A stretch of DNA of 64,000 nucleotides, taken from positions 1 to 64,000 of the IMG/VR virus record IMGVR_UViG_3300009182_000050. One strand, 5' to 3'. The stretch comes from a virus. The position numbers and the translations under genes are program-made. The notes below the pieces were generated by a model that was not told where the DNA came from, did not search any database, and saw only the letters and a list, made by a program, of their open reading frames with translations. Positions within the stretch are counted from its first letter, which is position 1. Each line of letters opens with the position of its first letter. Shown here piece by piece: positions 3,313-51,147 of the stretch.

Positions 3313-5601
3313 ATGCCTACATTTTCAAATAATATAGTTTCAAATATTGAATACTCTAATACGCTAACGCCTACTGGTGTATCTTCTCTTAGTACTAATG
3401 GATACAGTATAGAGATATCTGAAAATGGTAATACCATTGTTGCAGGTGACACTGGCGATAATGAAGGTAGGGGTGCTGTTTATGTTTTTAGTCGTCAAGG
3501 AGTTGGCGGACCTTGGGTGCAGACTCAAAAAATTACTTGGTCGTTGCAGACTATTGGTGGAAACTTTGGTTACTCGGTAGCCTTATCGGGTGATGCAAAT
3601 ACTTTAGTAGTTGGCTCTGTTAGTAACTCAGTTAATGCTGCTCAAGGTAAGGCTCAAGTTTATACTAGAAGTGCTTCTACTGGTTTATATTCAGAGTCTC
3701 AGACTATAACAGTAAGTACTGCATACTCTACTGCAGGTCAAATTGCTTATATTTCTAGTAACGGTTCTACAATATTTTTTGCAAGTCCAAATGAAACTGC
3801 ATCTAGAGGTACAGTTTATGTATACACTAAACCAACTACAACATGGACTTTACAAGGTACAATAATACAAGCAACAAAACCTTTATGGGGTACTGCTCTA
3901 AGTGTTTCTGGTGATGGAAATACAATAGCCGTTTTTAGGGAAGACGATATTGTTACTGTTTATTTTAGAGCAACAACTACTTTTGCTCTCCAAGGAACTT
4001 TACAACCTCCTACACTAGGTTTGAGTGGTTTTTTTGGTTCGGGGTATAACCCAATAAGCATTTCTTATGATGGTAATACGGTAGCAGTAGGTGAGCCTCA
4101 AAATGGAAATGTCTATACTTTTACAAGAAGTGGAAGTGTTTGGACAAGAATAAATACTTATGCAGCCCCTCTACCTTACACAAGTGGTGGTTTTGGTACA
4201 GCAATTGCTGTCTCTTCTGATGGCTCAACTTTATATATTAGAGACTCTTCAGGTCTTAATCCTGGCTATATTACTTCTCTTGATGTCTCTTCCCCGCTTT
4301 ATGTATATAGCACTGCTTCTACAACTTTGCTTTCTACTTTTTATACAACTAAACCAGATTATGATGCTAGTTTTGAAGTTTTCAAATGTTCAGTAAATGG
4401 CGGAAATATTGTAGGTAGTAATGGTTATGATGCTGTTAAAGTTTTTGATACTGGTAAAGCTTTAGATAATAATTTTTACGGTCATAATGGAAGAAACAAT
4501 ACATGGACTGTATCTAGATTTAATGAACTTACTTCTGTAAAAACAGTAAAAGCTAGTTATACTTTAACAACTAGTTTTACTTTTACTATTCCTGTAGGTG
4601 CTAAAGCAATAGATGTTATTTGCATTGGTGGAGGTGGAGGTGGCGGTGGAGGGGCAAGAAATGCTTCACCATACTATGGCGGTGGTTCAGGTGGTAGTGG
4701 AGGTAATGTATCAGAGTATATGTTTTCTGCTGATGCTTTAGGTGGTCCTGGAACTAATATTTTAGTAACCGTAGGTGCTGGTGGTCTTGGAGGTTCAATA
4801 ACTTCTTCAGGTACTACGGCTGCTAATGGTAATAGTGCTAGTAACGGTGGTACTACCAGTTTTGGCTCTTTTCTTAAAGCTGCTGGTGGAAATGCTGGCA
4901 CTTTTGCCTCCTTTAGTGGCGAGCCTCAGTCAACAACACCTCAAACAAATTATACAGGTATGTTTATTGGAAATACTGGTGGTAGTTCAGGGTCAGATGC
5001 AGCATCTTCTTATGCTGGTGCTGGTGCTGGCGGTGGCGGTGGCGGCGGTGTTTCTCCTAATGCTACAAAAGGTTCTATCCCTACTACTATAGATTTAGTA
5101 TCAGTTGCAGGTGCTAATGGAACTAGCAATGGTGCTTCATATACATCTCCTGGTGGTGGGGGTGGAGGTAGTTCTTCATCAGTATCAACTCCTCTTATTG
5201 CTGGTGAAGGTGCTAGTTATGGCGGTGGTGGTGGTGGCGGCGCAGAAGGTGCATCTCTTGGAGCTGGAGGTTCCAATGCTGCATATACTGGAGGAACTCT
5301 TACTGCTTCAACTGATACAGGTTATATAAGAATTGATATTACTGGTGGTACATCTCTTGTTGAAGACTCTAAGAATTATATTGATGTCACAGGTCTTACC
5401 TATACAGGTGCAACAGGCTCTACTACTGGTCCATTTTTAGTTACCAGTGGTACAACCATTGGTGGTACTTTTATAACATATAAAGTACCTACTGGAACTA
5501 CAGCCGTGTCAGGAACTCCTACAGTAGTGTTAACACGAGCTGGCGGTGCTGGCGGTAATGGTGCTGTTGGTATGTGTCATATTACAGTTTGGTATGGGTG
5601 A
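3313..5601 (+). CDS. FG-GAP-like beta-propeller plus glycine-rich virion protein (putative receptor-binding)
   Basis: Repeats such as FGYSVALSGDANTLVVG, WGTALSVSGDGNTIAV and FGTAIAVSSDGSTL, then a Gly-rich domain. Confidence 0.7.
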   Translation: MPTFSNNIVSNIEYSNTLTPTGVSSLSTNGYSIEISENGNTIVAGDTGDNEGRGAVYVFSRQGVGGPWVQTQKITWSLQTIGGNFGYSVALSGDANTLVVGSVSNSVNAAQGKAQVYTRSASTGLYSESQTITVSTAYSTAGQIAYISSNGSTIFFASPNETASRGTVYVYTKPTTTWTLQGTIIQATKPLWGTALSVSGDGNTIAVFREDDIVTVYFRATTTFALQGTLQPPTLGLSGFFGSGYNPISISYDGNTVAVGEPQNGNVYTFTRSGSVWTRINTYAAPLPYTSGGFGTAIAVSSDGSTLYIRDSSGLNPGYITSLDVSSPLYVYSTASTTLLSTFYTTKPDYDASFEVFKCSVNGGNIVGSNGYDAVKVFDTGKALDNNFYGHNGRNNTWTVSRFNELTSVKTVKASYTLTTSFTFTIPVGAKAIDVICIGGGGGGGGGARNASPYYGGGSGGSGGNVSEYMFSADALGGPGTNILVTVGAGGLGGSITSSGTTAANGNSASNGGTTSFGSFLKAAGGNAGTFASFSGEPQSTTPQTNYTGMFIGNTGGSSGSDAASSYAGAGAGGGGGGGVSPNATKGSIPTTIDLVSVAGANGTSNGASYTSPGGGGGGSSSSVSTPLIAGEGASYGGGGGGGAEGASLGAGGSNAAYTGGTLTASTDTGYIRIDITGGTSLVEDSKNYIDVTGLTYTGATGSTTGPFLVTSGTTIGGTFITYKVPTGTTAVSGTPTVVLTRAGGAGGNGAVGMCHITVWYG

Positions 5602-5606
5602 TGTAA

Positions 5607-6428
5607 ATGGCTTTTCCCTCTAGTCCTCTAAATGGTCAGCAATATACAATTGGTAACTCTACTTGGGAGTGGATTTCTGCTCAGGGATGCTGGAATCTTC
5701 TTGATGTAACAAATGTATATTCAACAACTACTCAAGTATTTACAAGTAGTGGTACTTGGAATATACCGTCAAATGCAAGTATGGCTCATATAACTTTAAT
5801 TGGAGGCGGTTCAGGTGGCCGTCCAGGTACCACTATCAATGCTACTTCAGGAAGTGGAGGTGATGGTGGTGGTGGTGGGGCTCTTACTAATGCACTTATT
5901 GATGTTGCTAATCTTTTAAGTTATATATCTCCTGCTACATCTGTAACCGTAACTATTGGTGTAGGAGGAGTTTCTGCTACAGCAGGTGGAGCTACTATTG
6001 TTGATATATCAAAAGCAGGTGGAGGCATTGCTCCAACAGGTTTTGGTAATTATACTGGTGGTCTTGGTTTGTTTAGAGGTGGTGGCGGTGGTTCAGGTAG
6101 CTCAGTTACTGCAAGTGGTAGTACTGCAGGTAGTGCAGGTGTGACAAGTTACGGTGGGGCAGGTGGTGGCAATGGTGGAAGTGCTAGTAATGCTTCTTTT
6201 AGTGTAAGTGGTGGAGCTGGAGGTGGTAGTCCTGTCTACACGATGGCTACAGGGGATACTTATGCTTCTAATATTCAAAATATGCCAGTTCCAGGAATAG
6301 TTGATAATACTGGAACTCCAAAATTTGGCGCAGGTGGGAATGGTGGTAACTATTCATCTGGAACAAGTACTAGTGGTCAAACAGGAGCAAACGGTGTAGC
6401 TGTTATTAAAGTTTGGTACAATTCTTAG
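5607..6428 (+). CDS. Glycine-rich tail fibre-associated virion protein
   Basis: FPSSPLNGQ N-terminus, FTSSGTW...LIGGGSGG core; paralogous to 2291-3307. Confidence 0.7.
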   Translation: MAFPSSPLNGQQYTIGNSTWEWISAQGCWNLLDVTNVYSTTTQVFTSSGTWNIPSNASMAHITLIGGGSGGRPGTTINATSGSGGDGGGGGALTNALIDVANLLSYISPATSVTVTIGVGGVSATAGGATIVDISKAGGGIAPTGFGNYTGGLGLFRGGGGGSGSSVTASGSTAGSAGVTSYGGAGGGNGGSASNASFSVSGGAGGGSPVYTMATGDTYASNIQNMPVPGIVDNTGTPKFGAGGNGGNYSSGTSTSGQTGANGVAVIKVWYNS

Positions 6429-21441: not shown

Positions 21442-21741
21442 TTGAGCAATGGACTACAAGAGCCTTGGACATTTGAGCAACCTGTTTGTAGAGAAGTTGG
21501 TGGTGAAGCATTTTATGCTGGTGATGAAGATGACCCTCAATCACTAGACACTAATATCTTAAATAATCAACTAGCCAAAAAAATATGTCAGACATGTAGT
21601 CATATTGTTGAGTGTGCTGAGTGGGGTATTCATCACGAAAGATACGGTATATGGGGTGGATTATCGCCTCACGAAATTGTTACTATAAGAAGAAAAAGAA
21701 ACATAATTATGAAAACCGTAACTCTTCCTAGAGTCCTGTAG
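21442..21741 (+). CDS. whiB: WhiB-family transcription factor
   Basis: C...CxxC-x5-C and YGIWGG; AAGGA SD. Confidence 0.92.
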   Translation: MSNGLQEPWTFEQPVCREVGGEAFYAGDEDDPQSLDTNILNNQLAKKICQTCSHIVECAEWGIHHERYGIWGGLSPHEIVTIRRKRNIIMKTVTLPRVL

Positions 21742-22471: not shown

Positions 22472-22963
22472 ATGTGGAAACCTGCTGATAATTTAAGATG
22501 GCAAAAGGATGCTAAATGCGCCGACCCATCTAATAAAAAATCACTTGTATGGTTTTACTCTAAAGATTCTGTAGAAAAAAATAATGCAAAAAATATGTGC
22601 TTCTCTTGTCCTGTCCGTAAAACCTGTCTACAGTGGGCTCTAGAGCACAGAGAGATTTGGGGTATCTGGGGAGGCAAAGATGAGATTGAACTTCGTAGGG
22701 CTTTGTCTGTGGCTTACAATGGTGAAGAAACTCGTCGTAATCGTCCACCAAACTGCCCATACTGCACTGCTCGTCCTAGCAAGTTAGCAACTTCAATTGA
22801 AAAACTTCCGCCCGGTGGACGCTGGACTCGTGCAAAAGTAGTTACTTGTACAGAGTGTGGATTTGCTTGGCGTAGTCGCTCAAGTGCAAATGCTGTTGAA
22901 GCATATAAAGAAGAAAAAGAAAAACGAAAAAGACTTAAGAAGTCAGCTACTAAGGCTGAATAA
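22472..22963 (+). CDS. whiB: WhiB-family transcription factor with extra C-terminal zinc ribbon
   Basis: WQKDAKC...CFSCPVRKTC...WGIWGG followed by CPYC...CTEC; TAGAAT 7 nt upstream of ATG (leaderless). Confidence 0.9.
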   Translation: MWKPADNLRWQKDAKCADPSNKKSLVWFYSKDSVEKNNAKNMCFSCPVRKTCLQWALEHREIWGIWGGKDEIELRRALSVAYNGEETRRNRPPNCPYCTARPSKLATSIEKLPPGGRWTRAKVVTCTECGFAWRSRSSANAVEAYKEEKEKRKRLKKSATKAE

Positions 22964-50193: not shown

Positions 50194-50433
50194 ATGACAC
50201 ATTCACAGAACGACCCAGACACAACCGCAAACTATCTAGGCTTGATGCTGATGATGGGATTCCCAGCAACTTCGCTGCAGAAGTTCGGGAATGAAATTGA
50301 GATTCCAGATGGTGCTATTGAAGACCGGCTTCTGGAAATTGCAAAGCTTCGGAACAACCTTCCAGAAGTTGTTGACCCTGATACCGGACTCAATGCTGAA
50401 GTCATTGATTTGTTCACAAAGCGTCCGATTTGA
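50194..50433 (+). CDS. Hypothetical protein
   Basis: Probable leaderless ATG at 50194. Confidence 0.55.
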   Translation: MTHSQNDPDTTANYLGLMLMMGFPATSLQKFGNEIEIPDGAIEDRLLEIAKLRNNLPEVVDPDTGLNAEVIDLFTKRPI

Positions 50434-50490
50434 CACGAGGCCTGAAAGGGCGTAAACTCCATCATAGATTCATTACGAAGGGAGAATCAC

Positions 50491-50643
50491 ATGCGTAATT
50501 GCGACATTTGCAAAGACCGCGAATCAAAGTACGATGCTCGTACGATTTGGGGTCCTTGGGCTTATGTGTGCGAGAACTGCTTCAAGCAGTACACACATAA
50601 CAAAGTTGAACTCGGTTTTGCTACCAAGTTGACAGCGGCGTAA
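50491..50643 (+). CDS. Small zinc-finger protein (not in ORF track)
   Basis: Promoter 50430-50458, AAGGGAG SD, CDIC..YDART..GPWAYVCENC. Confidence 0.75.
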   Translation: MRNCDICKDRESKYDARTIWGPWAYVCENCFKQYTHNKVELGFATKLTAA

Positions 50644-50657
50644 GACCCGTGTATAAC
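50629..50657 (+). promoter_or_regulatory. SigA-type promoter
   Basis: TTGACA-17nt-TATAAC. Confidence 0.75.
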
Positions 50658-50663
50658 TGAATA

Positions 50664-50900
50664 ACAACATTCTATCCCTAGATTATTTTGGACATTTAGG
50701 GCTAGATAACCGCACAGGCCTGAGGGTTTTGCCTTACTCCTCCCTCAGACTTTTGGGAGTGCGTTGTCCCGGCACTCGCGAACACGGGACACTTAAGTTT
50801 CCTAACTCAAAAGGTTAGGATTTCGCAAGCATCAAAGGAACGGTTCTGGAGATGCGAGGCTTGGTGGGTTGCTCCGCCACCTGCGAACACGGAGCATTTC
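50664..50900 (+). ncRNA. Candidate structured ncRNA with hairpins and two homologous H-type pseudoknots
   Basis: Stems 50671-50706, 50720-50748 and 50800-50820; pseudoknots 50757-50791 and 50863-50896 with compensatory changes. Confidence 0.65.
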
Positions 50901-50925
50901 AAACTACAGAAGGAAAAAAACTACA

Positions 50926-51147
50926 GTGACAAAACAACTGACCGGCATGCCGTGGCTTCGCCAGCGCATGACCACACTGAAATACACATCACTAGAGCAA
51001 GTAGCTGTTGACATGGGAATCAACCGTGGCAACCTGTACCGGTACTTCGCGTTAGAGACGCGGCCAAGTATCGCGATGCTTCCGGTGATGACAGAAGTTC
51101 TCGGCGTGAAGACGGACGAGATGCTACGCGTACTGGAAGTCAAGTAA
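50926..51147 (+). CDS. XRE-family HTH protein
   Basis: SLEQVAVDMGINRGNLYRY...RPS; AAGGA SD before GTG at 50926. Confidence 0.8.
   Translation: MTKQLTGMPWLRQRMTTLKYTSLEQVAVDMGINRGNLYRYFALETRPSIAMLPVMTEVLGVKTDEMLRVLEVK

What the first reader, a model, noticed from the sequence alone, without database searches (positions are those of the whole stretch)
50664..50900. Promoter-driven ncRNA with two co-varying copies of an unfamiliar H-type pseudoknot
Seen: a TTGACA-17-TATAAC promoter (50629-50657) is followed by about 260 nt with no credible ORF. It contains PK1 = GAGTGC-GT-TGTCCCG-GCACTC-GCGAACA-CGGGACA (50757-50791) and PK2 = GGTGG-GT-TGCTCCG-CCACC-T-GCGAACA-CGGAGCA (50863-50896). Both stems differ in sequence between the copies but stay paired, while the loops GT and GCGAACA are identical. 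That is covariation within one genome. Further hairpins lie at 50671-50706, 50720-50748 and 50800-50820. Inference: a phage-encoded RNA module. Candidate roles are nuclease-resistant caps on processed sRNAs, a ligand or protein aptamer, or a decoy of the pseudoknot antitoxin RNAs of type III toxin-antitoxin systems, which phages are known to mimic. I do not recognise it as a named family.
Basis: partly seen in the sequence, partly recalled or inferred. Interest (0 to 1): 0.8.

Follow-up and report, generated by a model that had tools for sequence, protein, structure and literature searches.

The report
New pseudoknotted RNA of freshwater phages
The two pseudoknots are real copies of an uncatalogued RNA fold of about 80 bases with three helices, which hundreds of uncultured freshwater phages carry on their early transcripts, usually just ahead of a gene; what it does is still unproven.

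Summary
Observation confirmed and enlarged.

The same 35-nt knot occurs in at least 96 to 119 IMG/VR phage contigs and at least 118 metagenome contigs. No true copy was found in 185,579 species genomes.

Covariation is strong: 96.3% of cells are paired, 10 of 16 pairs change on both sides, and 0 of 500 shuffles reach the observed score.

A CGC triplet upstream pairs with the first three bases of the long loop; all three pairs covary. This closes a three-way junction whose arms are a variable hairpin and stem 1. The window holds two such units: 50711-50791 and 50824-50896.

There is no Rfam 15 match. WhiB genes point to actinobacterial hosts.

Context:
- 114 of 150 distinct copies end 16-37 nt before a start codon.
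- 5 of 150 are followed by a terminator, including a promoter-to-terminator small-RNA gene.
- There is one copy per complete 40-kb genome.

Function is unproven. My best guess (0.33) is a decay-blocking structural module. The main rival is a trans-acting decoy or aptamer.

The scan's index holds only this same stretch.

The parts
50430..50458 (+). Promoter-like site TTGACA-17-TAAACT ahead of the 50-aa gene 50491-50643. Transcripts from here would also carry the RNA.
   Evidence: Flagged by the scan tool with 10 of 12 matches. This is a consensus match only.
50629..50657 (+). The -35 element overlaps the end of the upstream ORF.
   Evidence: Sequence read. Not flagged by the tool because position 6 of the -10 is C. 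It is identical in the close relative L040, and homologous leaders in L005-type loci carry TTGACA-18-TACAAT.
50671..50706 (+). 5' hairpin between the putative transcription start and unit 1.
   Evidence: Minimum-free-energy fold. Promoter-driven relatives have an analogous 5' hairpin in the same place.
50711..50713 (+). Unit 1, 5' strand (CGC) of helix T. It pairs with GCG at 50778-50780.
   Evidence: CGCA lies 23-64 nt upstream of stem 1 in 66 of 66 distinct loci. All three pairs covary in relatives.
50715..50748 (+). Unit 1, variable hairpin P1. The core stem pairs 50720-50726 with 50742-50748; the loop is pyrimidine-rich.
   Evidence: Folds. Every relative has a hairpin of different sequence and length at this place.
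50749..50756 (+). Unit 1, junction linker (ACTTTTGG).
   Evidence: Read. Linkers are 1-9 nt in relatives, 4-8 nt in 64 of 69.
50757..50791 (+). Unit 1, H-type pseudoknot. Stem 1 pairs 50757-62 with 50772-77. Loop 1 is 50763-64. Stem 2 pairs 50765-71 with 50785-91. The long loop, 50778-84, begins with the 3' strand of helix T.
   Evidence: Model hit of 64.6 bits; covariation.
50800..50820 (+). 8-bp hairpin followed by UUU. A weak terminator-like element between the two units.
   Evidence: Fold energy -9.1 kcal/mol, z -3.15. Not flagged as a terminator by the scan tool.
50824..50826 (+). Unit 2, 5' strand (CGC) of helix T. It pairs with GCG at 50883-50885.
50828..50855 (+). Unit 2, variable hairpin P1. 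The stem pairs 50829-33 with 50851-55.
   Evidence: Fold.
50856..50861 (+). Unit 2, junction linker.
50862..50896 (+). Unit 2, H-type pseudoknot. Stem 1 pairs 50862-67 with 50877-82; its outermost position is a U.U mismatch. Stem 2 pairs 50870-76 with 50890-96.
   Evidence: Model hit of 54.7 bits.
50897..50925 (+). G-poor, A/C-rich spacer containing the ribosome-binding site (GAAGGA, 50909-50914).
   Evidence: Read. The 12 bases after the knot are G-poor across 127 distinct copies.
50926..51147 (+). Downstream gene for a 73-aa helix-turn-helix protein with a GTG start. It begins 29 nt after unit 2.
   Evidence: Pfam HTH_3 at 25.3 bits against a cut-off of 23. The start aligns with the ATG of its L002 and L062 homologues.

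Best explanation
What it is (shown; about 0.95 confidence for this part). Each unit is a self-contained RNA of about 75-100 nt belonging to a family that is not in Rfam 15.
- A 3-bp helix T (CGC with GCG) closes a three-way junction.
- One arm is a hairpin of free sequence and length.
- The other arm is the 6-bp stem 1. Its 9-nt loop pairs over 6-7 bp with the 3' tail to form stem 2.
- The unpaired bases GU(K) and (A/C)ACA are fixed in every copy recovered, although the search patterns fixed most of them.
- The window carries two units in tandem on an early transcript of a freshwater phage of Actinobacteria.

How it works (inferred; about one in three). The unit is an autonomous, very stable RNA knot that stops RNA-decay enzymes travelling or entering from the 5' side. 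Whatever lies 3' of it is kept.
- Usually that is the first cistron of an early or DNA-metabolism operon, separated only by an unstructured A/C-rich spacer that leaves the ribosome-binding site open.
- In a few phages it is only a terminator hairpin, which would yield a stable small RNA.

On this reading, unit 1 plus the weak hairpin in the window would give a small RNA, and unit 2 would protect and insulate the mRNA of the regulator gene.
For: Fold
- 96.3% of cells pair, 10 of 16 pairs change on both sides, and 0 of 500 shuffles reach the covariation score.
- Helix T is supported by compensatory changes at all three pairs: CAC with GUG (L133/L223, and independently L269); CGU with ACG (L169/L200/L238, L268); UGC with GCA (L271, and independently L272/L273).

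Placement
- 114 of 150 distinct copies end 16-37 nt (mode 23) before a ribosome-binding site plus start codon. 23 more lie within 46-130 nt, 5 are followed first by a terminator-like hairpin, and 8 by neither.
- The 12 bases after the knot are G-poor.
- The genes that follow belong to at least five unrelated families. The constant feature is therefore the head of a transcription or translation unit, not a particular gene.
- In three lineages the module sits about 50 nt behind a sigma-70-like promoter.

Topology
- Junction plus hairpin-loop-to-tail pseudoknot. The junction strands are 1 nt, about 4-8 nt and 0 nt.
- By my recollection this is the layout of class 1 flavivirus exoribonuclease-resistant RNAs. 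That resemblance is recalled, not computed.

Host
- Two WhiB genes lie in the window (Pfam PF02467), and WhiB homologues occur in 27 of 174 module-bearing loci.
- The L014 terminase is 45.7% identical to those of Streptomyces phages.
- From established knowledge, Actinobacteria have the 5'-to-3' exonuclease RNase J and the 5'-end-dependent RNase E.

Companion element
- A conserved irregular duplex (M2) lies directly upstream of the module in 27 loci. It could be a processing site that creates the 5' end. This is inference.
Against: - No RNA end, stability or nuclease datum exists. No RNA run is on record.
- The 5'-flank-to-junction pairing that I recall as a defining feature of flavivirus xrRNAs is absent: the longest run is 3.20 against 3.21 in permuted controls.
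- In bacteria, plain 5' hairpins usually suffice as stabilisers, so the strict conservation of loops asks for a specific partner.
- There is only one copy per complete 40-kb genome (4 of 4). A general stabiliser would be expected at many genes.
- In the L007 group the only copy is a promoter-to-terminator RNA gene with no cistron to protect.
- In L138 and L162 another hairpin (H) lies between the knot and the ribosome-binding site.
- Close relatives do without the module. Of 80 loci anchored on the downstream protein, 40 have the knot, 19 have hairpin H instead, 18 have neither and 3 are truncated.
- The relative L393 has the HTH gene without any leader.
Confidence: 0.33

Rival explanations
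1. Trans-acting RNA product. The unit is made to be an RNA in its own right: a decoy, sponge or cofactor that binds a host or phage protein, or an aptamer that soaks up a small molecule such as an immune signal. It merely rides on early transcripts, from which it may be cut out.
For: - In the L007/L023/L030/L096/L056 group the module has its own promoter-like site, a 5' hairpin and a strong terminator hairpin (-17.8 kcal/mol, followed by a U-rich tail). The next gene is convergent.
- This is the only strong copy in the 111-kb record G005.
- Within this group the knot differs by structure-preserving changes (L007 against L056).
- L181 and L194 also end in terminators.
- The module's slot moves within the early region, and the module is present or absent among close relatives. 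This is what accessory or counter-defence cargo looks like.
- It co-occurs with other conserved RNA modules, M2 and H, as if in an array.
- The window's tandem duplication would double the dose.
- Loop and stem sequences conserved across unrelated phage types suggest one shared binding partner.
Against: - No partner is known.
- The only protein I found shared between the window and many module loci is WhiB, a transcription factor.
- 76% of copies sit directly before a ribosome-binding site. That is more orderly than a free-riding RNA gene needs to be, although tight phage packing explains part of it.
- No true copy exists in 185,579 species genomes. A close mimic of a host-encoded RNA, such as an antitoxin or a CRISPR repeat, is therefore unlikely.
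Confidence: 0.27
2. Cis-acting translational operator. A protein (phage or host, for example a ribosomal protein) or the 30S subunit itself binds the knot beside the ribosome-binding site and sets translation of the first gene of the operon. This would resemble the T4 gene 32 leader pseudoknot or the E. coli rpsO pseudoknot.
For: - The distance to start codons is fixed and short, 16-37 nt in 114 of 150 copies.
- An unstructured spacer follows the knot.
- Conserved loops suggest a specific partner.
- The window and L002/L062 place the module before an HTH regulator gene.
Against: - The downstream proteins differ, and none looks like a single-strand-binding protein or an RNA binder.
- Stand-alone copies and copies followed by terminators exist.
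- The pairing energy of the upstream half of the unit (hairpin P1 plus linker) with the ribosome-binding region is no better than shuffled: -9.37 against -9.05 kcal/mol.
Confidence: 0.1
3. Riboswitch. The junction and knot form a ligand pocket, and ligand binding governs the terminator or the ribosome-binding site that follows. Tandem units would sharpen the response.
For: - It is a compact pseudoknot with invariant unpaired bases.
- Five copies are followed by terminator-like hairpins.
- In L007 the 3' strand of stem 2 is complementary over 5 nt to the 5' strand of the terminator stem (my reading of the sequence). This could serve as an antiterminator.
- The window has a tandem arrangement.
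Against: - Stems of 6 and 6-7 mostly G-C pairs should fold without a ligand.
- In 114 of 150 copies the spacer before the ribosome-binding site is A/C-rich and cannot pair with the knot, so no expression platform is visible.
- The regulated genes share no pathway.
- No riboswitch model in Rfam matches at an E-value up to 10.
Confidence: 0.08
4. Processive antiterminator, like the put RNAs of phage HK022. The nascent knot binds the host RNA polymerase and lets it read through downstream terminators of the early operon.
For: - The module is single-copy (two in the window) and lies near the head of an early operon, about 50 nt after promoter-like sites in three lineages.
- Terminator-like hairpins follow directly in the window (weak), L007, L181 and L194.
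- A host polymerase as the partner would explain sequence conservation across unrelated phages.
Against: - In L007 the terminator is followed by a convergent gene, so read-through would serve nothing.
- In the 40-kb phages no promoter is evident nearby, and the module is freely lost or replaced among close relatives. That is unexpected for a core regulatory switch.
- The fold is unlike the two stem-loops I recall for put.
Confidence: 0.08
5. A new class of small self-cleaving ribozyme that cuts polycistronic early transcripts.
For: - The size, the invariant junction bases and the variable hairpin fit a small ribozyme.
- It occurs only in phage contigs, in moving intercistronic positions.
- It lies next to a second conserved motif (M2) that exists in two circularly permuted forms.
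Against: - No known ribozyme model matches.
- M2's permutation is explained simply if M2 is an irregular duplex that can be capped at either end.
- No permuted form of the knot module was seen.
- Catalysis cannot be judged from sequence.
Confidence: 0.07

Closest known systems
Class 1 exoribonuclease-resistant RNA (xrRNA) of flaviviruses
   Same: It has the same secondary-structure layout: a helix closing a three-way junction with two hairpin arms, where the loop of the second arm pairs with the tail just 3' of the closing helix. The junction strands are short. It occurs in tandem in the window. In some phages it is followed only by terminal structure, so it could leave a stable small RNA. The xrRNA layout is recalled, not computed.
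   Different: - No sequence or model similarity: Rfam at an E-value up to 10 gives nothing on the region.
- The closing helix is 3 bp.
- The loop-tail helix is 6-7 bp.
- The pairing between the 5' flank and the junction strand is absent.
- The carrier is a DNA phage of bacteria, whose exonuclease would be RNase J and not Xrn1.
- Nuclease resistance is untested.
Leader pseudoknot of phage T4 gene 32 (autogenous translational operator)
   Same: It is an H-type pseudoknot in a phage mRNA leader, followed by an unstructured stretch and the ribosome-binding site, and it is single-copy.
   Different: - The gene downstream varies and is never a recognisable single-strand-binding protein.
- There is an extra junction helix and hairpin.
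- Stand-alone copies with terminators exist.
put RNAs of phage HK022 (RNA-mediated antitermination)
   Same: It is a phage cis-RNA of similar size placed shortly after early promoters, with one or two copies per genome.
   Different: - The fold differs (two stem-loops, as I recall).
- The hosts differ.
- In the 40-kb phages the module lies inside operons.
- It is lost or replaced among close relatives.
ToxI-type antitoxin RNAs of type III toxin-antitoxin systems and their phage mimics
   Same: It is a small pseudoknotted RNA, and phages are known to carry mimics of such RNAs.
   Different: - There are no short tandem repeats. The window's knots start 105 nt apart, and most genomes have one copy.
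- No toxin gene lies nearby.
- No true copy exists in 185,579 species genomes.
- No Rfam match.
Small H-type pseudoknot riboswitches (preQ1-I, SAM-II, guanidine-III)
   Same: The knot has the same size and H-type topology, with conserved loop bases.
   Different: - No model match.
- The stems are strong and G-C rich.
- The ribosome-binding site lies outside the knot, behind an unpairable spacer.
- The genes that follow are unrelated.

Membership tests
Any Rfam 15 family | Score at or above the family's gathering threshold. | tested here: not met
   There were 0 matches in the whole window and 0 in 14 related loci totalling 146 kb. At an E-value up to 10 on 50550-51000 there was only a chance miRNA hit (13.1 bits, E 9.6).
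Flavivirus class 1 xrRNA | A three-way junction closed by a helix, with the loop of the second arm paired to the 3' tail. | tested here: met
   Helix T, hairpin P1, stem 1 and stem 2 are all supported by covariation. This shows the same topology only, not homology.
Flavivirus class 1 xrRNA | Pairing of the 5' flank with the junction strand, which helps form the ring around the 5' end (feature recalled). | tested here: not met
   The longest pairing run between the 8 nt 5' of CGC and the linker averages 3.20, against 3.21 +/- 0.08 for permuted partners, on 69 representatives.
Flavivirus class 1 xrRNA | Halts a 5'-to-3' exoribonuclease. | not testable with these tools
   Needs enzyme assays or RNA end mapping.
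Type III antitoxin RNA (ToxI-like) or a phage mimic of one | Head-to-tail repeats of about 34-45 nt, processed by the toxin. | tested here: not met
   The window holds two knots starting 105 nt apart and separated by other structure. Each of four complete 40-kb genomes holds one copy.
Type III antitoxin RNA (ToxI-like) or a phage mimic of one | Resembles an antitoxin encoded beside a toxin gene in host genomes. | tested here: not met
   A strict-pattern scan of genome contigs gave 3 hits. Two have a 5-nt spacer, and the third pairs 3 of 6 positions in stem 1 by my reading. The pattern was strict, so a divergent host original is not excluded.
H-type pseudoknot riboswitch | An expression platform (ribosome-binding site or terminator) that competes with the aptamer fold. 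| tested here: inconclusive
   114 of 150 copies have an A/C-rich spacer and a free ribosome-binding site. 5 of 150 have a terminator-like hairpin close by.
H-type pseudoknot riboswitch | Binds a specific ligand. | not testable with these tools
T4 gene 32-type autogenous operator | Lies upstream of the gene whose product binds it (a single-strand-binding protein). | tested here: not met
   The downstream genes are an HTH_3 protein, a phrog_466 exonuclease, phrog_1221, and two families of about 140 aa with no PHROGs or Pfam match.
HK022 put antiterminator RNA | Lies between an early promoter and the terminators it overrides. | tested here: inconclusive
   Promoter-like sites lie about 50 nt upstream in the window, L005-type and L007-type loci. 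No promoter is seen in the 40-kb phages. In L007 the terminator faces a convergent gene.
HDV-like self-cleaving ribozyme | A nested double pseudoknot with a P3/L3 hairpin between the 5' strand of P2 and the 3' strand of P1, and a P4 hairpin (features recalled). | tested here: not met
   There are 0 nt between the 5' strand of stem 2 and the 3' strand of stem 1, and only 7 nt before the 3' strand of stem 2. The loop's GCG is base-paired in helix T. No Rfam HDV model matches.

The most novel reading that the evidence does not exclude
The unit is an autonomous functional RNA of phages, not a mere leader. It would be one of three things:
- the first nuclease-stalling RNA knot described in viruses of bacteria, a functional counterpart of flaviviral xrRNA and sfRNA aimed at RNase J or RNase E;
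- a phage-made decoy or aptamer RNA that disarms a host protein or soaks up a signalling molecule;
- a new self-cleaving ribozyme class.

The promoter-to-terminator copies, the tandem copy in the window and the presence/absence pattern among close relatives all allow this reading.
Probability: 0.3. Interest if true: 0.85.

Novelty: new variant of a known kind. Interest (0 to 1): 0.62.

Why it matters
Conserved, covarying RNA folds with invariant unpaired bases usually mark a specific molecular job. It spans unrelated phage types that share freshwater actinobacterial hosts, and it is absent from Rfam 15.

Each possible function would matter.
- If it blocks RNA decay, it would show that DNA phages of bacteria use the same architectural trick as flaviviruses. 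It would also offer a compact, portable insulator and stabiliser for gene expression in Actinobacteria.
- If it is a decoy or aptamer, it would add an RNA-based layer to phage counter-defence.

In either case it is small enough for direct structural and biochemical study. The proven three-helix topology, including a 3-bp tertiary helix with compensatory changes at every pair, gives clear mutants to test.

Tried and rejected
Database and literature searches
- Rfam: nothing at gathering level in the window or in 14 loci. Searches at an E-value up to 10 on the region and on the M2 region of L067 gave only chance hits.
- GenBank/INPHARED phages: the 351-nt region gave no match. A 45-nt knot query at an E-value up to 10 gave three chance-level hits, all at E 9.
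- Expression: no RNA holder was listed for the stretch. Read laying was not used because only DNA contig runs were offered.
- Literature:
  - The search for pseudoknot, bacteriophage and exoribonuclease-resistant gave nothing on phages of bacteria in the listing.
  - The structured-RNA survey search led to PMC10690425, of which I read passages only. It predicts 8,495 candidate structured RNAs from IMG/VR and may contain this motif, but its alignments are in supplements I could not open.
  - A text search for the ten-letter loop word found only primers.
- Earlier notes of this scan hold only this same stretch.

Ideas tested and dropped
- The variable hairpin loop matching the ribosome-binding site, a lead from notes on other phage leaders.
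  - The duplex energy of the upstream half of the unit (hairpin P1 plus linker) with its own ribosome-binding region is -9.37 kcal/mol, against -9.05 for shuffled sequences.
  - Anti-Shine-Dalgarno-like 4-mers occur in 25 of 117 loops, against 16.1 +/- 3.3 in shuffles (maximum 26). The enrichment is weak and not universal.
- An xrRNA-like 5'-flank-to-junction pairing: absent.
- A phage-encoded partner: I compared window ORFs with ORFs of 174 module-bearing loci. The only widely shared protein is WhiB, in 27 loci.
- A host-encoded original: the three hits in species genomes are chance matches.
- HDV-like, pistol and hatchet resemblances recalled from memory were not borne out by Rfam.

Rows dropped
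- Chance pattern hits with 0-2 of 6 stem 1 pairs: L191, L233, L263, L264, L266, L267 and one metagenome locus.
- L261 and L265: the long loop lacks GCG while CGCA stands upstream, a possible exception to helix T. They were left out of alignment A4, together with L262 (a 1-nt insertion).
- L270: upstream sequence too short to judge.
- In A4, four rows (L169, L185, L203, L268) are misaligned at helix T. One shows as a gap and the others account for the three non-standard cells in helix T.
Full report
**1.

In the window, TTGACA (50629-50634), a 17-nt spacer and TATAAC (50652-50657) precede about 270 nt without a credible ORF. PK1 (50757-50791) and PK2 (50862/3-50896) are H-type pseudoknots. Their stems differ in sequence, and their loops GT and GCGAACA are identical. 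A covariance model built from homologous knots scores the two copies at 64.6 and 54.7 bits. The next hit in the window scores 10.6 bits, and the remaining 8 kb of the phage record adds no further copy.

Its -10 lacks the final T, so the scan tool passes over it. The tool flags TTGACA-17-TAAACT at 50430-50458 instead, ahead of the small gene upstream.

**2. It is a large family found in phage and phage-sized contigs**

- A strict descriptor of the knot found 96 stretches in IMG/VR.
- Looser descriptors found 119 stretches in IMG/VR and 118 in metagenome contigs.
- Stem 1 was left free in these patterns. It still pairs at 5 or 6 of 6 positions in 141 of 143 distinct IMG/VR sequences and in 117 of 118 metagenome loci.
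- The largest metagenome contig listed is 59 kb.
- In one genome for each of 185,579 species, the strict pattern hit three places, none with a paired stem 1.
- GenBank phages gave nothing beyond chance.
- No Rfam 15 family matches the window or 14 related loci.

**3. The fold is larger than first described**

An invariant CGCA lies 23-64 nt upstream of stem 1 in 66 of 66 distinct loci. It is followed by a hairpin of free sequence and length and by a short linker.

I then scanned specifically for knots whose long loop does not begin with GCG. Every evaluable member with a paired stem 1 carries the matching change at the homologous upstream triplet:

| Upstream triplet | Start of long loop | Loci |
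|---|---|---|
| CAC | GUG | L133/L223, and independently L269 |
| CGU | ACG | L169/L200/L238, L268 |
| UGC | GCA | L271, and independently L272/L273 |

L262 has a 1-nt insertion but is otherwise canonical. L270 is cut off upstream and cannot be judged. L261/L265 is an unresolved possible exception.

So a 3-bp helix T closes a three-way junction. Its arms are the variable hairpin and stem 1. The loop of stem 1 pairs with the 3' tail to form stem 2.

On 70 representatives:
- 96.3% of cells pair, against 30-45% when partners are slid by 1-3 columns.
- 10 of 16 pairs change on both sides.
- The covariation score is 0.426 against 0.151 in shuffles, and 0 of 500 shuffles reach it.
- The first pair of stem 2 fails in 27 of 70 representatives.

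One caveat applies. My patterns fixed most bases of stem 2 and the loops, so their invariance is partly built in. The 40 knots found through the neighbouring protein instead vary at only a few of those positions.

The window therefore holds two complete units, 50711-50791 and 50824-50896.

**4. Context**

Hosts. The phages appear to infect freshwater Actinobacteria.
- Two WhiB genes lie in the window, and WhiB homologues occur in 27 of 174 module loci.
- The terminase of a 40-kb member is 45.7% identical to those of Streptomyces phages.
- The seven runs that hold at least half of the stretch's sampled words are labelled freshwater metagenome or metagenome.

Copy number. Each of four complete 40-kb genomes has exactly one copy. 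A 111-kb record has one strong copy.

What follows the knot, in 150 distinct copies:

| What follows | Copies |
|---|---|
| Ribosome-binding site and start codon, 16-37 nt after the knot | 114 |
| The same, 46-130 nt after the knot | 23 |
| Terminator-like hairpin first | 5 |
| Neither | 8 |

The 12 bases after the knot are G-poor. The genes that follow are unrelated to each other: an HTH regulator, an exonuclease, phrog_1221, and two unknown families of about 140 aa.

Promoters and stand-alone copies.
- In L005-type loci the module follows a tool-flagged TTGACA-18-TACAAT promoter by about 56 nt.
- In the L007 group it sits between a promoter-like site and a strong terminator hairpin. The next gene is convergent, so this is a stand-alone small-RNA gene. 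The scan tool did not flag that promoter or that terminator. The terminator rests on the fold.
- L181 and L194 also end in terminators.

Turnover among close relatives.
- Of 80 loci anchored on one downstream protein, 40 have the knot, 19 have a different conserved hairpin (H) in the slot, 18 have neither and 3 are truncated.
- L138 and L162 have both the knot and hairpin H.
- A 66% identical homologue of the window's HTH gene has no leader at all.

**5. Mechanism**

Nothing here measures function. Two kinds of evidence pull in different directions.
- Placement at the head of early cistrons, the open spacer, the great stability and the junction-plus-knot topology point to a cis-acting barrier against 5'-end-dependent decay.
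- The stand-alone copies, the single copy per genome, the turnover among relatives and the strict loop conservation point to an RNA that works as a product with a specific partner.

I rank the decay-block reading first (0.33) because it can cover every context: it would give a protected mRNA, or a stable small RNA where only a terminator follows. A trans-acting decoy or aptamer comes second (0.27). Translational operator, riboswitch, antiterminator and ribozyme each stand at about 0.1 or below.

Tests that came out negative:
- loop-to-ribosome-binding-site matching;
- the xrRNA-type 5' pseudoknot;
- a shared phage protein partner.

**6. Known relatives and novelty**

The layout matches class 1 flavivirus xrRNAs in topology only. 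One defining pairing was tested and not found, so it is not a member of that family. It also fails the defining features I could test for ToxI-like antitoxins, the T4 gene 32 operator and HDV-like ribozymes.

It may be among the 8,495 unnamed candidates of PMC10690425, which I read in passages only. The supplements were closed, so I cannot say.

I rate it a new RNA family of a familiar general kind, a structured phage leader or small RNA, with a fair chance of a new function.

Noticed in passing
Related loci, directly upstream of the module; for example L014 about 3985-4053 (- strand), L067 about 6020-6090 (- strand), L016 about 125-165: A second conserved RNA element (M2). It is an irregular duplex with two conserved strands (about AACCAGCGUAAGG and GAGAUGCAGGU). 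It occurs in two circularly permuted forms: 33 loci have an outer closing stem and 10 have the other end closed. It lies within 170 nt upstream of the knot in 27 cases and upstream of hairpin H in 11. There is no Rfam match, and it is absent from the window. It may be a processing site, for example for RNase III; that is a guess.
   Followed up: partly
Related loci L106, L114, L119, L120, L126 and others, in the slot just before the ribosome-binding site: A conserved hairpin H (stem about CUGAGCA/UGCUCA, with a loop containing AUGUG..UAAAC). It replaces the knot in 19 of 80 protein-anchored loci and co-occurs with it in L138 and L162. Its function is unknown.
   Followed up: partly
window 21442-21738 and 22472-22960 (+): Two WhiB-family genes (Pfam PF02467, 44.1 and 62 bits). 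They mark the phage as one infecting Actinobacteria.
   Followed up: yes
window 50430-50458 (+): A better promoter-like site (TTGACA-17-TAAACT, 10 of 12 matches) ahead of the 50-aa zinc-ribbon-like gene 50491-50643. The structured RNA may therefore also be made as an intercistronic segment.
   Followed up: no
Variable hairpin loops of the module in many loci; for example L185, L186, L195, L203, L133, L141: The loops are U-rich: 605 U among 1,104 loop bases. A recurring loop sequence (about UUUGUUCAUUUC) is shared by lineages whose stems differ. Other lineages have loops resembling the 3' end of 16S rRNA (CUCCUU). This is unexplained.
   Followed up: partly
L261 and L265 (the same sequence on two contigs): This knot has a paired stem 1 (5 of 6), but its long loop begins UUA instead of GCG while CGCA stands upstream. 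It is either a true exception to helix T or a member with another register.
   Followed up: no
Here it is the ribosome-binding region of the HTH gene (GAAGGA followed by an A run). I looked at this one site only.
   Followed up: partly
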